NCBI GenBank assembly: GCA_965202585.1
Contig: OZ241831.1
Span: 44,082,001-44,146,000 of the forward strand
Direction: 5' to 3'
DNA from: Thalia democratica
Lineage: Eukaryota
DNA: 64,000 nt
Within the stretch, counting starts at the first letter, position 1. Every line of letters begins with the position of its first letter. Shown one piece after another: positions 3,001 to 9,000 of the stretch. The position numbers are program-made.

Positions 3001-6000
3001 GCAGCGACTCTCTCTCCTTGCCCATCTCGTTCTTCTCACTAGACGTGTGTTGAACTTTGTTAGTAATGTGTATTTAAAGTTTTAACATGCTTATGATTTA
3101 AAAACTCTTCTTTTAGCTTCTAATGAGGATTTTTTTTTTGTATATTTGCCAACATAAACAGCTTATTTTCAAGTACCAGTAATTAAGCTTAGTTTATATA
3201 TAAGTATATAAATATCGAAAATTTATTTTAATGGTCAGTAACAACTGATGTACATCCAAACACAAACTCACCTTCCAACGACTTCTGCCGACGACTTGTA
3301 CCTGTAAGCGTCCCTCTTGGCGTCCTCCTTCGCTCTGGTGGTCGTGTCCAGGTCCTCTCTGATGGACAGGAGCTGCTTCTCCAGCATGTGCTTGCTGTGG
3401 TCCGCATCAGCCACCTGCTTCTTCAGCGCCGCGTTCGAATCCTTGGCCGCGTCCAATTTGGCTCGAAGCTCCTGATTTTTGGTTTAAAGTTAATTACTTA
3501 CTGCAAAGGTCAGAGTTGTTGTCGGTAAAAGTTTTTTGTTAATACTTTTGCAGTTAGTTTCAAAAGAGTTTTTTTTTGTGAATCTGTCGTGTTTTGAAAC
3601 GTCTTGTTTTTGACGAGATATTTACTTTCTTAATTGTAATGATAAACTTTATCAGTTTTGTTATGCAGGTTACCCACTTTTAATTAAGTTTTATGTGGTA
3701 GGTATTTTTTCATGTTTTTTGGAACATCAAGTGTTTTAATTTAATCAAAAAAAAAAATTGCAGAGTGGTTCTTTGCTTTTACATTTTTGTAATATATGTA
3801 AACCAGAACTGTTAACGTGATTGTTATGAAGATTTTCAAGAGAGCTATATACGTTATAAGAGGCACTTAACATAAGTGAAAACAGTTAAAAATATTTGCA
3901 AAACCAAAAAATTCTTTTTTGAATATTTTGTAGTGGTAAAATGTAAACAAACTTTACGAAACTGTACATAAAAACCAGTTCGAACATTAATTTGAAGCTT
4001 TTTGGGTTTATACCAATGAATAGTCTTACTAAAACCGATATTCGTTTAGGAATTTATTAAAAAGGTGCTTTACTTCATGAATATTAAACGCCTAAATGTT
4101 TTAGAAACACTACAACTATGTAATTTCAAACTGCAAAAAAATAAATGCATACAAATGCAAATGCCTAATAAACCGCCAACAACCAATAGTTTAATAATCT
4201 GTAAAGTAATCATTTCTTGAGTAGTCGTACTTTATAAGTTGTTCTAATTGCACAAACAGAAGCTGTTTTTGATTACATCATTCAATTCGGCAACAACACA
4301 TAATACATCATTAAAGTCAGTTAAATGTTGTTTTATTCAATTAATAATACAAATTCTTCTAAGGCATGGTAGTATACACCAACCTGAACTTGCAGCTGTC
4401 TCTTCTGCAATGCGGCCTGCACCGCGTGGTACGTCGAATCTGCGAACGACGGGGAAACTCCTCTCGCTGCCGGGGATCTCCCTCTTCTCGGTGACCTTCT
4501 ACCGCCTGGTGACGGCGACCTTATCGGGGAATACCCACGACTGTAAGAATGAGTTTTAATTTAGATTTTAAAATAACATGTTATTAAACTTTTTTTTTAG
4601 TAGTAAAAGTATCAAGCTTTTCAAAAATGAATGATACTAAATAAAAAATAGTAATTGTCCTTCAGATCAATAAAAATAACTTTAAGTACATAAAATTTAC
4701 CTCTAAGTAAAACAACTGATATAGTCTTCATGAATCTAAAAAAAATTCTGTTAAAACCATATGAATATTATAGTATGTAAAAACATTACTACAGTTTCTT
4801 AAAGCATACCATGAACAAAATGCATTAAATTAAAAAAAACTCGATAAAAGACACTATACTCTAACAAAGTAAACCTTTCGTTTATGCAAGCTTCCTTCAA
4901 GCTCGCTTTAGCCAGCGCCTTCGCGTCACTCTTACTCTTATCCAGTTCCCTTTCCAGGCTGCTGAAATCGCACCTGCTTTTACTCCGGTGCTTCACCAAT
5001 AAATCCCTCAGCGCCGGATGCCAGTCTTTCAAGTCTTTGGTCGACGAGTTGAGCCTGCTGTCCCTGATCAGCTTCTCGCTCGCCTCTATCATGCTCTGCA
5101 CGCTACTAATGCTCCCGATCATCTCCTTCTTGTTCTTGAACGAGTTGTTGAACACCGACTCGGTTTCAACTTGCCTCTGCTCCCTCACTTTACGCTCGTT
5201 TATGTCTATCAGCCTCTGCACGCTCGTGCTCCTGCTTCTGATCCTGGTCGCCGGTTTCGCTTCCACGGCGCTGGCAGAAGCCTGGTTGGCGGAGCTGTCG
5301 TCTTCGAACGACGAGTTGCCGACGAAGCTGTCGTTTCTGACTTCCATCGACTTCCGGGCTCGCTGCAACATCGGCGACCCGAAGCCGCTGTCGTCACAGT
5401 TCTCACCCCTGCCGGGCTCCTCCGAGAACGCCTCGACCAGCGAAATTTTCCTGCCCTGCCGCTGGACGCTGCGCTTCTTCGGCGTCGGCTTCGGCGTGCT
5501 GCCGTGAACCTTGTTGGTTCTGTACGACATGACAACAAAGCTCGAAACAAAAAACTTTCTTTTCAAATAAAACTTTAAAATTTAGTCTCAACAACTTTTT
5601 CTGCGAACAAATTCGGTCTAAAACTAAACTTTGAAGCTAAATAAACGCAAATACTACTGTGAAGGTATCGCACTGCCAGCTCAACTGAAATTAAACTAAG
5701 TGAAAGTGATTTGCAACCGAACGACAAATTACCCAATGTCAAGTGCACGCCGAAAAAGCTCTTCAGCTCAAACGAGCTTGCAATTGTCAAAAGAAAAGGC
5801 ACAAAAAGCAGAAAGGCTGAGAGCAATTTGTTTTCGCGTTCTGTGGCTGGCTGCCACAGAAGAGAGGGAAATTCGTCGAGGGCCCTTGAAAATTTTCTGC
5901 ACAAAACAGATTTCGCCCGGACTGTTGAGAGGTGCTCTTGTGTGAGGGGCAGAAAATAAGTAACAGTGGCAGAAAATAGCTGGTGTGCAGCCACTTTGGG

Positions 6001-9000
6001 TTATTTTATTTTTCTGCTTCAAGTTCAACGCTCCCTTTTTACGTTGCTACGTGAACTGGTCGAAACGTATACTAATTTTAGTAACATAGTTATTTACATA
6101 TTTTTTTAAAAGGCAAACAAATCTAACGATTCTAATAAGACTGCTACTCGTAAAGCAAACTATTTCTGTAAAAAAAAAAAAACTCTTTTTGCACAATAAG
6201 CTAGTAAATAAAATTTTTATACTGTCACTAAAAATGAATAAATAAAAATTCGATTGTTTTTTTAATATTTTCGATACTTTTGTTAAATACAACTAATAAT
6301 ATAAAAAACATCCTAGATTGTTTTTTTAAATTCTTGCTTTATAACTTTAACCTTGTAAGTGAACTCAACTTAATTCAAACTTAAAATAATACAAAAACAA
6401 ATGACAAAGATGAAATAAGTCTAACAAAGCTGTAGAGTTCAATGCTGTAACCATTTAAAAGTACTAAAAAAACTAAATTTCATCTATGTATTAAACTAGA
6501 CAAATGTTTTTTGTCTTACATAAATAAAAAAATCATCAACACTAACGTGGGAGACACGCTGAGCCCCATGTCGTTCATGCTCTCGCTCAGCTCAGTGACG
6601 GCACTTGCGGGTTTCATCTGATCGTCGCTGAGCGCCATGGCCAGGTCCGCGTCCGCTATGACCGACTGCGCGATGTCCCTGAGCGCCTGCTCGATCATCG
6701 CCTTGTCGTCCCTCAGCTTGGCCATCGTCTCCACGTCCTCTTCCTCCTCTTCCACCCGGGTAGATTCCTGTGCGTTGGTTGTGACAATAAAAAAACGAAT
6801 GAACAAAAAGGTCAGTTCAAACAAGTTCTTATTCAAATGGCACATTTTCCATTAAATAATATTTTTTAACTTTTGTAATGTTACGTGTTGTTTATTGCTT
6901 GTTGAAACTTTTTGCTGCATCAGCTTTTGGATCAAGAAGATTTATGGTCAATTTAAGCAAGGGCTTTCTGAAGTGGGCGATATTACCCTTATGGTGGAGG
7001 TATTGACTATTAAAGGCGTTAACAACTAGTACGGGGTGAAAAATTAAAAGGGTATTTCAATAGCAAAGGAGCCAATATTTTTGTATCTTTTGCAAAAAAA
7101 GAACATAAAAATGATTTTGTGAAACTCTTCTGTGAGCGAGTAATTATTTGTACGCTGGTTATAAACTGAATCCGTAAATTTCTCAACGTAAACACTTACT
7201 TGCGGAATGGACAGGTTGAGTTGGTTGATGGTGCAGTCTTTTTCGTCGTTCTGTTTCTGAAGTCTCTCTGTGGCGACAGTCAGTTCGTTGATCTTGGCGT
7301 TCAGCGCTGCTTTCTCCGTATCGAAATCAGATTGCATCTGTAGCATTTCTTTCACCTGTTTAATATACAAGATTTAATAGATTGTGAAATTTATTACATT
7401 TTTTTAAACAATTGTTTTCATAAGTTAAAACGTAACTTTTAAACACGTTTCATATTTGATGATATTGTGCTATTTACAACAATGAAAAAAAAAGGAAGTC
7501 TGTCTAAATACTTTTCCAAATACAAAATAGAGCTTTTGTACCAAAGTCAAACGTCTTGTAATTAAACTTCGAAAATTTAAATACACATAAGACAAAAAAA
7601 TAATATGTAAAATTACTTTAAATCTTCTACTACCCCTTTTTTTTATTTACACTTAAAAAAAAACACGCCTTTTCTCTCAGCTGATCTTCGACTCCGCTCT
7701 TCTCTCCTCTTTCTTTCTCAAGAGAGACTTTAGCGGACGAGTCCTGAACATTCTGATTGGCTCCGAGGTTCAAGCAGGCGGCGTGAAGTTGACGGGCACC
7801 TCTCTGTGTAAATACACAATTGTAACACAGACATATATCTAACTGTTTGTATGGTATACGAAAAGAAGAATGCGCTTATTTGAACCTTTTGGATGAAAAT
7901 ATAAAAACATATGCTGTAGCGAAGTTTAAAAGCACAATCTTCTTACTACTTTTTAACAATTTAAAAGACTATCAATGTTATCTAAGTTAGATATATTGCA
8001 TTTTGTATACATTAGATTGGTGGCGTATTTAGAGTAAAGGTAGGCATGGTAAGCAACTAAATACAAGTAGTAAATTGCAAAATCCCACCTGGACATCATT
8101 GATAGCTTCGTTCAGGTTGGTCTGAGTGCTGGACTTGAGATCGGTGAATCCCCTTCTGATCTGCACCACTGCCCTCCACAATGCCAGCAATCTGCTGTGC
8201 TCGTCACCAAAGTACGTGCTAAAGTTCTATGAAAGAAGTTATATAAATTTAAAACTTCAAATGTGTCTGTCCTACTATGTTCTTATACAATAAATAGGGA
8301 CAGTAAGTTATACAGTTTTTAGTTAGATCAAACAGAACTATTTTCTAAATAATGTTTACGCCTACTATAAATCTGTACACGAAAACGAACTAAATTTTAT
8401 GGTTTCTGGCTACTTTAAGTAAAATTGTTCAACTTACCACGTGAGTTTAGTAAAAAACATTTTTTGTCAGGAAAAAAATTTAAACAAAATTATTTTGAGT
8501 TAACCGAAACTACTTTTGTAGACTAAAATTTTATATTTATTATTATTACGTCATACAAAATCCTCACCTCTTGTTCTTCCTTCCACTGCTGCTCCGTCGT
8601 CTTCAGTTTCTCCTGAACGTCTTCGAAGTCCTGCTGGCACTTTTGCAGGTCGTCGGTCACTTTCTTCATGTCCTCACTCATCTTCTCGTTGCCCTCGTTC
8701 GCCGCTTGCAGTTGTTCGCGCAACATCGCGTTCACCTCCGCAAGACTTTCGGCTCTGAAGAAAAAAAATACAGTTTGTCTACTGTTAGGTACTTTGAAAC
8801 CTTAAACACCATTTGAATTGTGGAAACGGATCACAAATGCACGGAGCGTCACTTTTGCATTAAATTGTTTCAATTAATTTAGTAATTTAAAACTTTTTAT
8901 GTTTGAAATGTTGTTTTTAAATAAATAAATACTTTCGTACGAACCATAACTGTATATATATTTTATTATATTAAACTTGGAAATAAGTTTCGGTTATTGC

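What the first reader, a model, noticed from the sequence alone, without database searches (positions are those of the whole stretch)
4875..6060. Hidden 218-228-codon exon that could give rootletin an alternative head
Seen: exon 6547-6767 splices in frame directly to 4384-4540, yet the intron holds a stop-free GC-rich ORF (ATG 5530) ending in a phase-2 donor that also fits exon 4384-4540. Two weak acceptors (5541-5542, 5559-5560) give symmetric 666/684-nt cassette options, and a CpG-rich block (5620-6060) lies just upstream. The peptide is Ser/Arg-rich, low complexity and ends in a short amphipathic helix; from memory it has no counterpart at this position in human CROCC. Inference: either an alternative first exon (an isoform lacking the whole N-terminal head and Rootletin domain but keeping the polymerising coiled-coil tail) or a large lineage-specific cassette.
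Basis: partly seen in the sequence, partly recalled or inferred. Interest (0 to 1): 0.68.

Follow-up and report, generated by a model that had tools for sequence, protein, structure and literature searches.

The report
Alternative first exon in rootletin gene
A 656-base protein-coding block inside an intron of a rootletin gene is real coding sequence and is most likely an alternative first exon that gives this ciliary-rootlet protein a different, lineage-restricted head; it is a sound annotation point, not a surprise.

Summary
On the minus strand, an ORF runs from ATG 5530 to a GT donor after 4875. It lies in the intron between rootletin exons 6547-6767 and 4384-4540, and it is in phase with 4384-4540. 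It is coding sequence. GC3 is 0.80, against 0.22 GC in the flanking intron, and the periodicity starts at the ATG and stops at the donor. A codon model trained on 13 rootletin exons scores only this frame positive. One unnamed database protein (P0002, 94-97% identical) keeps the frame through three indels of 2, 2 and 3 codons.

The alternative-first-exon reading is favoured. Both in-frame acceptors are poor. The 556 nt upstream hold no ATG, and 440 nt of them are GC-richer and non-periodic. A spliced relative (P0004) joins the canonical exons with nothing in between.

The isoform would lack about 450 N-terminal residues, including the whole Rootletin domain. It would carry a disordered Ser/Arg/Lys-rich stretch plus a roughly 60-residue helix instead.

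New here: a stronger internal donor after 4974 is also in phase, so the exon may have two 3' ends.

No transcript data were available, so promoter use and splicing remain inferred. Taxon unknown. Interest is modest.

The parts
4875..5530 (-). Coding part of the proposed alternative first exon (ATG 5530; 218 codons + 2 nt; protein P0001)
   Evidence: GC3 0.798 against GC1 = GC2 = 0.447. The periodicity starts at 5530 and ends at 4875. The codon model gives +0.234 bits/codon in this frame and negative scores in the other five. P0002 is 204/218 identical, with three in-frame gaps.
5531..6086 (-). Putative 5'UTR and core promoter: a 556-nt stretch without ATG. Within it, 5621-6060 is GC-richer (0.43) and 5531-5620 is AT-rich.
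   Evidence: It is the longest ATG-free run on the minus strand. 39 of 5000 dinucleotide shuffles have no ATG. There is no codon periodicity, with GC1/2/3 of 0.435/0.435/0.425. Codon-model scores are negative in all 6 frames. Function as a promoter or UTR is inferred.
4873..4874 (-). GT of the terminal donor (AAG|GTTTAC), phase 2
   Evidence: Composition and conservation both drop here. The PWM score is only 0.96, below all 12 known donors of the gene.
4972..4973 (-). GT of an internal alternative donor (CAG|GTGCGA; last exon base 4974), also phase 2. It lies 99 nt (33 codons) upstream of the terminal donor.
   Evidence: PWM score 10.65, at the top of the range of true donors. Coordinates checked base by base. 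The 32 codons beyond it still have GC3 0.625. Its use is not shown.
4541..4874 (-). Intron between the new exon and the shared exon (334 nt, GC 0.216)
   Evidence: It has no AATAAA and one ATTAAA.
4384..4540 (-). Shared rootletin exon (Ser-Pro-rich linker and the start of the rod), the acceptor for both upstream exons
   Evidence: Reading. 87% identical in P0003, and 85% identical over its conserved C-terminal half in P0004.
6547..6767 (-). Canonical upstream exon that normally joins 4384-4540
   Evidence: P0004 aligns to 6549-6695, then 4387-4464, then 3346-3471, with nothing in between.
5541..5560 (-). The two weak AG acceptors (5542-5541 and 5560-5559) that would make the block a 666- or 684-nt cassette
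   Evidence: PWM scores are -4.53 and 2.15, against -2.66 to 10.34 for 14 true acceptors. 77% and 22% of all 811 AG sites score at least as well. 0 of the 14 true acceptors has G at -3.
8089..16905 (-). Exons carrying the Rootletin domain (16678-16905 region, 11612-11739, 8568-8754, 8089-8226), all upstream of the new exon and so absent from the proposed isoform
   Evidence: PF15035 matches to model positions 1-26, 37-84, 84-143 and 140-185 of 188.

Best explanation
The block is a genuine protein-coding exon of the rootletin gene, used as an alternative first exon from an internal promoter.

Proposed mechanism:
- Transcription would start somewhere in 5531-6086 and translation at ATG 5530.
- The exon would splice from the donor after 4875 to the acceptor of exon 4384-4540. 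The in-phase donor after 4974 may be used in some transcripts.
- The product keeps the Ser-Pro linker and the whole coiled-coil rod.
- It replaces about 450 N-terminal residues, including the entire Rootletin domain, with a 218-residue head (185 residues with the internal donor).
- That head has a disordered, basic, Ser-rich first 100 residues, then a roughly 60-residue helix and three short helices.

Shown: coding character, frame, strand, phase fit, and conservation in one close relative.

Inferred: the promoter, the splice, and the function.

Functional inference: by analogy with published deletion constructs, such an isoform should still reach basal bodies and co-assemble with full-length rootletin through the rod. 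It should not build rootlets alone, and it should lack the partners of the canonical N-terminus. It would therefore act as a modulator or a cell-type-specific variant.
For: Coding character:
- GC 0.564 against 0.22 in the flanks, and GC3 0.798, like exon 6547-6767 at 0.849.
- In 60-nt steps, GC3 jumps from 0.35 to 0.9 exactly at the ATG. It falls from 0.6 to 0.2 at the donor.

Frame and strand:
- A codon model built from 13 rootletin exons (719 codons) gives +0.234 bits/codon for the ATG frame. The other five frames score -0.218 to -1.562.
- The same model places 12 of 13 exons correctly when each is left out in turn.

Conservation:
- The one hit among 1,835,955,588 representatives, P0002, starts at the same Met.
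- It has 7 substitutions in 211 aligned residues and three gaps of 2, 2 and 3 residues. Residues 143-218 are identical.
- Past the donor, 3 of 15 read-through residues differ. Fisher test of 7/211 against 3/15 gives p = 0.02.

First exon rather than cassette:
- An in-frame TAA lies 17 codons upstream of the ATG.
- There is no ATG in the 556 nt upstream. Shuffles average 4.1 ATGs, and 39 of 5000 have none.
- That stretch is GC-richer than the intron but shows no codon periodicity. The block at 29163-29454, upstream of the canonical ATG at 28290, is likewise GC-elevated: 0.37 against a window mean of 0.27.
- The acceptors score -4.53 and 2.15.
- P0004, from a more distant relative, joins the canonical exons directly.

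Functional analogy, from passages I read:
- Drosophila RootDEL, which lacks the N-terminal 333 residues, localises to basal bodies and to existing rootlets. It does not rescue the mutant or assemble rootlets (PMC4621839).
- The rod segments CC2-CC4 self-interact, whereas the N-terminus binds KLC3 and nesprin-1 (PMC11623930).
Against:
- The terminal donor AAG|GTTTAC is weak. Its score of 0.96 is below all 12 known donors (1.45-11.75 when left out), and 24% of all 647 GT sites score as well.
- No promoter motif stands out. No X-box matched any of the four patterns tried within 5531-6100. The one TCAGTT at 5683-5688 is one of 80 in the window.
- ATG-free runs of 480-620 nt occur elsewhere in the window. 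The block is also poor in CAT and GAT, so part of the ATG depletion is compositional.
- GC3 periodicity cannot tell the strands apart. The plus-strand ORF 4848-5507 shares the same third positions.
- The codon model is biased towards coiled-coil composition. Among the ORFs outside its training set, it scored the antisense of exon 1 (28100-28297, +23.0 bits) above the sense ORF (-0.2).
- P0002 sits on a 1138-nt unnamed contig and reads through the donor, so it is unspliced and proves no splicing.
- In P0003, a relative whose shared exon is 87% identical, the sequence just upstream of that exon is a different ORF of about 200 codons. It has no similarity to P0001.
Confidence: 0.6

Rival explanations
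1. Cassette exon. The block is spliced in between 6547-6767 and 4384-4540 through the AG at 5542-5541 or 5560-5559. This would insert 222 or 228 residues into full-length rootletin, between the head and the Ser-Pro linker.
For: Both options keep the frame and contain no stop. The tract before 5540 is T-rich. The 5558 acceptor scores 2.15, within the low end of the true acceptors.
Against: The 5540 acceptor scores -4.53, worse than all 14 true acceptors, and has G at -3, seen in 0 of 14 (11 CAG, 2 TAG, 1 AAG). The 10-28 nt between the acceptors and the ATG are AT-rich and show no GC3 rise, although the stretch is too short to be decisive. P0004 shows the canonical junction without an insert, but it is only one spliced relative and a distant one. 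The ATG-free upstream stretch has no explanation under this model.
Confidence: 0.12
2. Independent nested gene, or an unspliced product. A transcript from the same promoter is not spliced to rootletin. It ends in the intron and gives a 242-residue protein (the 218 residues plus 24-25 read-through codons to the stop at 4799-4801).
For: The frame stays open for 25 more codons after 4875. P0002 was predicted in exactly this read-through form. The terminal donor is weak.
Against: GC3 collapses to 0.24 in the read-through part, and conservation drops there (3 of 15 residues differ, against 7 of 211). There is no AATAAA in the 334-nt intron, and the only ATTAAA lies 20 nt before the acceptor. Two donors in the exact phase needed for the next rootletin exon would be a coincidence, about 1 in 3 each.
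Confidence: 0.1
3. The exon is the same but shorter. It ends at the strong internal donor after 4974, and the last 33 codons are intronic or only alternatively included.
For: CAG|GTGCGA scores 10.65 against 0.96 for the terminal donor, and it is in the same phase 2. GC3 of the 32 codons beyond it is lower than in the rest: 0.625 against 0.827.
Against: A GC3 of 0.625 is still far above the intron level of 0.24. The 32 codons are identical in P0002. The PWM over-scores G-rich sites inside GC-rich exons: decoys at 5407 (8.57, phase 1) and 5189 (6.38, phase 0) also score high.
Confidence: 0.25
4. Not a functional exon: a chance open frame in a GC-rich insert, or a decaying remnant.
For: No family, fold or named relative was found. 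Other frames of the block are open too.
Against: Codon-position periodicity is bounded exactly by an ATG and a GT. The codon-model score is positive only in this frame. Three indels are all multiples of three, and 76 identical C-terminal residues are shared with a relative whose adjacent intron has diverged.
Confidence: 0.05

Closest known systems
Drosophila melanogaster Root (CG6129) transcripts RE, RD and RF
   Same: The same gene family, with several alternative 5' ends within one gene (passages of PMC4621839).
   Different: [quoted passage not shown] Here the alternative 5' exon is coding, lies downstream of the Rootletin domain, and would change the protein's head.
Internal-promoter transcripts of bovine CEP250 (delta-N C-Nap1)
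   Same: CEP250 is a paralogue of rootletin. Its 5'RACE products start inside the gene and could give proteins lacking at least 195 N-terminal residues (passages of PMC4423223).
   Different: Those transcripts were seen in mutant cells and start translation at in-frame ATGs of ordinary exons. No new coding exon or new head is added.
RootDEL, the engineered Drosophila rootletin lacking residues 1-333
   Same: It has the same architecture as the predicted isoform minus its new head: rod without Rootletin domain. It localises to basal bodies and joins existing rootlets (PMC4621839).
   Different: It is an artificial construct, and it fails to rescue. The natural isoform proposed here carries 218 extra residues of unknown activity.
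Dystrophin short isoforms from internal promoters (Dp260, Dp140, Dp71)
   Same: This is the general kind: a long rod protein whose internal promoters give N-terminally truncated isoforms (abstract of PMC7372313, seen in the listing). That these promoters have unique first exons is my recollection.
   Different: An unrelated protein family. The resemblance is in gene architecture only.

Membership tests
Rootletin / CROCC gene (the host gene) | N-terminal Rootletin domain (Pfam PF15035) followed by a long coiled-coil rod | tested here: met
   Four minus-strand exons match model positions 1-26, 37-84, 84-143 and 140-185 of 188. Two exceed the gathering score on their own (40.4 and 49.0 bits against 36). 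Downstream exons are coiled-coil-like.
Rootletin / CROCC gene (the host gene) | The new block itself belongs to a conserved rootletin region | tested here: not met
   No Pfam family for P0001 or P0002. No PDB chain at E <= 1. No paralogous copy in the window. The only relative in 1.84 billion representatives is P0002.
Alternative first exon with internal promoter | Start codon at the 5' edge of the coding signal, closed upstream by an in-frame stop | tested here: met
   ATG 5530 and TAA 5584-5582. GC3 rises from 0.35 to 0.9 at the ATG.
Alternative first exon with internal promoter | Donor in phase with the shared downstream exon | tested here: met
   The donors after 4875 and after 4974 are both phase 2, as the acceptor at 4540 requires. 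The terminal donor is weak (0.96).
Alternative first exon with internal promoter | Own transcription start and promoter | tested here: inconclusive
   Only indirect signs: a 556-nt ATG-free run (39 of 5000 shuffles) and a GC-richer, non-periodic block. No X-box, and no Inr above chance. CAGE or 5'RACE is not available here.
Alternative first exon with internal promoter | Transcripts that join the exon to the shared exon | not testable with these tools
   No read or transcript collection for this organism was available. P0002 is unspliced.
Cassette exon | Functional acceptor at the 5' edge | tested here: not met
   Scores are -4.53 and 2.15, against -2.66 to 10.34 for 14 true acceptors. G or A at -3 compares with C in 11 of 14. 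The PWM comes from only 14 sites, so this is weak.
Cassette exon | Length a multiple of three, and inclusion seen in relatives | tested here: inconclusive
   Lengths of 666 and 684 nt are multiples of three. The single spliced relative, P0004, lacks any insert at the junction, but it is distant.

The most novel reading that the evidence does not exclude
The single rootletin gene of this lineage plays two roles through promoter choice. Drosophila Root is reported to be the sole orthologue of both mammalian rootletin and C-Nap1 (PMC4621839); that this organism also has one such gene is assumed, since its taxon is unknown.

The full-length form would build rootlets. The head-swapped form, which has no Rootletin domain, would serve as a regulated linker or capping subunit.

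Its new head carries phospho-regulated and degradation signals: one DSGFGS at residues 47-52 and six RxxS sites. That DSGxxS is a beta-TrCP-type degron is my recollection. These signals would allow cell-cycle or cell-type-specific removal, as reported for other linker proteins. For example, Cep68 degradation in mitosis is mentioned in passages of PMC4905396.

The unrelated ORF at the same position in P0003 would then hint that this intron is a hot spot where different lineages evolve their own heads.
Probability: 0.1. Interest if true: 0.55.

Novelty: new member of a known kind. Interest (0 to 1): 0.3.

Why it matters
If it is transcribed as proposed, gene models of this rootletin that list only the canonical exons miss an isoform. 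That isoform removes the one domain shown in flies to be essential for rootlet assembly and adds a lineage-restricted, probably phospho-regulated head.

That would matter in three ways:
- for annotation;
- for designing knock-outs or antibodies, since N-terminal reagents would miss this isoform;
- for asking how animals with one rootletin/C-Nap1 gene diversify its functions.

It does not change what is known about rootlets in general. Papers searched:
- Rootletin with 'isoform' and 'alternative promoter': 2 papers.
- Rootletin with Drosophila, isoforms and rootlet: 71 papers, of which 15 were listed.
- A six-term search for internal promoters and truncated isoforms, needing any 2 terms: 399 papers, of which 15 were listed.

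Among the papers listed and those I read in passages, none described a coding alternative first exon of rootletin. This says nothing about database annotations, which I could not consult.

Tried and rejected
- Family and fold look-ups for the 218-residue peptide were all blank. This covers Pfam, PDB sequences at E <= 1, and the ESM Atlas for the whole peptide and for residues 95-218. Rfam and tRNA scans of the window were also blank.
- Word-indexed protein searches restricted to longer proteins (up to 2000 residues) found nothing for P0001 or for exon 945-1175. Full-length rootletins above 2000 residues were outside those searches, so annotated isoforms of relatives may have been missed.
It gave an unspliced genomic translation with 'region' set to one exon.
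- The exon 4384-4540 search gave P0003 and P0004. P0003's upstream ORF is not similar to P0001 by BLASTP (E = 6) or by profile comparison (probability 0.14). It has no counterpart in the window. I considered it as a divergent homologue of the new head and rejected that for lack of evidence.
- Exon duplication within the window is rejected. tblastn and blastn found only the block itself, apart from a 20-nt internal repeat at 5085-5104 / 5205-5224.
- RFX X-box, Inr, TATA and CRE scans gave nothing above chance in 5531-6100.
- A homodimer prediction for residues 95-218 returned no verdict. Earlier hand-ins met a full queue.
- The AlphaFold model has mean pLDDT 60.5. Only the helix at 102-161 reaches 78-90. 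I ran no fold search on it, because a low-confidence model gives meaningless matches.
- The taxon was not established.
- The spliced protein (new head joined to the downstream exons) was never assembled or searched. All searches were exon by exon, so exact look-ups of a full isoform and a fold of head plus rod remain undone.
The one available contig collection holds only bacteria and archaea and was not used.

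
Full report
**Setting.** The window is AT-rich (GC 0.271) and shows no CpG depletion (o/e 0.97). Its exons stand out as GC-rich islands. A rootletin gene lies on the minus strand. It runs from a start codon at 28290 down past position 1. Pfam's Rootletin domain (PF15035) is spread over four exons: the 16678-16905 region, 11612-11739, 8568-8754 and 8089-8226. I could not establish the taxon. Nothing in the window or in the hits looks human to me.

**The observation.**
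- Exon 6547-6767 is 221 nt and leaves two bases over.
- Exon 4384-4540 begins with a third codon position, so the two exons join in frame.
- In the intron between them, an ORF starts at ATG 5530, 17 codons after an in-frame TAA at 5584-5582.
- It runs 218 codons plus two bases to AAG|GTTTAC (last base 4875), so it is also in phase with 4540.
- AGs at 5542-5541 and 5560-5559 would give 666- and 684-nt cassettes.

The 'CpG-rich block' at 5621-6060 is GC-richer than the intron (0.43 against 0.22) and has three times the CpG density. Its CpG o/e of 0.78 is not raised, however.

**Is it coding?**
- An open frame alone proves little here, because two plus-strand frames of the same block are open for 219 and 191 codons.
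- GC by codon position is 0.447/0.447/0.798, like the neighbouring rootletin exon with GC3 0.849.
- In 60-nt steps, GC3 rises from 0.35 to 0.9 exactly at the ATG and falls from 0.6 to 0.2 at the donor.
- This periodicity is shared by the plus-strand ORF 4848-5507, which uses the same third positions. Strand therefore had to be tested separately.
- A codon table from 13 rootletin exons (719 codons) scores the ATG frame at +0.234 bits per codon and the five other frames at -0.218 to -1.562. With each exon left out in turn, it finds the right frame for 12 of 13.
- Of 438 ORFs of 40 codons or more in the window, nine score positive. Seven are training exons and one is this ORF (26.1 bits). The ninth is the antisense of rootletin exon 1, whose sense ORF scored -0.2.
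- The model is therefore tuned to coiled-coil composition and is not infallible on Ser-rich exons.

**Relatives.**
- A full HMMER pass over 1,835,955,588 representative proteins found a single hit, P0002 (E = 4.6e-117). It is an unnamed ENA protein of 226 residues, seen on one 1138-nt contig.
- P0002 starts at the same Met and has 204 of 218 positions identical. It has three gaps of 2, 2 and 3 residues, and it is identical over residues 143-218.
- It then reads on into what is intron in the window, and there 3 of 15 residues differ. The test of 7/211 against 3/15 gives p = 0.02.
- Three frame-preserving indels and a conservation drop at the donor argue for a coding exon ending at 4875. Because P0002 is unspliced, it says nothing about splicing.
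- Pfam, PDB sequences, the ESM Atlas and a self-search of the window gave nothing.
- On present evidence the head is lineage-restricted.

**First exon or cassette?** I searched exon by exon and never joined exons into a spliced model. Look-ups of a complete isoform were therefore left out.
- The shared exon 4384-4540 retrieved two unnamed Logan proteins.
- P0004 aligns in order to 6549-6695, 4387-4464 and 3346-3471. It is a spliced product of a more distant relative, with the canonical junction and no insert.
- A position matrix from this gene's own sites gives the candidate acceptors -4.53 and 2.15. The 14 true acceptors score -2.66 to 10.34, and none of the 14 has G at -3.
- Upstream of the ATG there is no ATG for 556 nt. 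This is the longest such run on the minus strand. Dinucleotide shuffles of the stretch carry 4.1 ATGs on average, and 39 of 5000 carry none.
- The GC-richer part of that stretch has no codon periodicity and negative codon scores in all six frames.
- A GC-elevated non-coding block also lies at 29163-29454, upstream of the canonical start codon at 28290.

These points favour an internal promoter with a long 5'UTR. They remain indirect for three reasons:
- No promoter motif rose above chance.
- Comparable ATG-free runs exist elsewhere in the window.
- The block is also poor in CAT and GAT.

**The 3' end.**
- The terminal donor is weak. It scores 0.96, below all 12 true donors, and 24% of 647 GT sites do as well.
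- A much stronger site, CAG|GTGCGA, lies after 4974. It is 99 nt upstream and in the same phase.
- The 32 codons between the two sites still look coding (GC3 0.625 against 0.24 beyond) and are identical in P0002.
- The matrix also over-scores G-rich decoys inside the exon (5407, 5189).
- I therefore keep 4875 as the main end and flag 4974 as a possible alternative 5' splice site. It would remove 33 residues in frame.

**The peptide.**
- Composition is S 16.1%, R 9.6% and K 9.6%, with net charge +11.
- AlphaFold2 with a two-sequence alignment gives mean pLDDT 60.5. Residues 1-100 are mostly unstructured, apart from two short strands and two short helices at low confidence (pLDDT 43-61). A helix spans 102-161 (pLDDT 78-90), and short helices follow at 172-182, 189-198 and 203-216 (pLDDT about 56-63).
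- The long helix holds a two-fold sequence repeat, mirrored by a 20-nt DNA repeat.
- One DSGFGS and six RxxS motifs are present. Reading the first as a degron is my recollection, not a test.

**Likely function (inferred).**
- The isoform would lose about 450 residues. This is an estimate, because the boundaries of exons 1, 2 and 6 were not fixed.
- The loss includes the whole Rootletin domain.
- It would keep the Ser-Pro linker and the rod.
- In flies, rootletin lacking its first 333 residues reaches basal bodies and joins existing rootlets. [quoted passage not shown]
- The rod segments self-associate, while the N-terminus binds KLC3 and nesprin-1 (passages of PMC11623930).
- Internal starts giving N-truncated C-Nap1 were seen in cattle (passages of PMC4423223).
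- I therefore expect a co-assembling, modulatory or cell-type-specific form.

**Verdict.**
- It is a new member of a known kind, namely an alternative promoter with its own coding first exon.
- Interest is modest (0.3).
- Junction reads and cap mapping would settle it.

Noticed in passing
window 32800-57000: A unit of about 8.2 kb is repeated three times in tandem. Each unit holds a head-to-head inverted pair of a CUB-domain exon (PF00431, E = 1e-7), giving six copies at 33192-33440(-), 36192-36440(+), 41371-41724(-), 44360-44647(+), 49695-49943(-) and 53376-53633(+). The arms are 89-98% alike.
   Followed up: partly
window 9419-9791: A second GC-richer non-coding block lies inside a rootletin intron, between the Rootletin-domain exons 11612-11739 and 8568-8754. 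It has two perfect TGACGTCA palindromes at 9556 and 9611 and a CCAAT. It may be another internal promoter or an enhancer.
   Followed up: partly
window 10443-10457: An X-box-like palindrome, GTTGTTTCTGGAAAC, lies in the same intron. Six matches to that loose pattern occur in the whole window, so it may be chance.
   Followed up: no
protein P0003 (unnamed, Logan; no window coordinates): This relative's shared exon is 87% identical to 4384-4540. In it, an ORF of about 200 codons runs from the intron straight into that exon. The ORF is unrelated to the new head. It also contains a DSG motif (DSGISVSS). It remains unexplained.
   Followed up: partly
window 7665-7803: The rootletin exon starting at 7803 has no obvious phase-0 GT donor. 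The frame-keeping site reads AAG|GCGTGT near 7669, which might be a GC-AG intron, or my exon model there may be wrong.
   Followed up: no
window 250-370 and 17502-17786: A short inverted-repeat element, possibly MITE-like, recurs in rootletin introns. It gives near-identical ORF text at 335-739 and 17502-17786.
   Followed up: no
window 59191-59588 and 62027-62356: Two more GC-rich exon-like blocks lie beyond the rootletin gene. The block at 62027-62356(-) has a weak PMP22/claudin match (E = 0.0015, below the cut-off). The block at 59207-59566 has no family.
   Followed up: no
window 28100-28297 (+): The antisense of rootletin exon 1 scores +23 bits with the rootletin codon model, while the sense ORF scores -0.2. 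This warns that the model misjudges Ser-rich exons.
   Followed up: no
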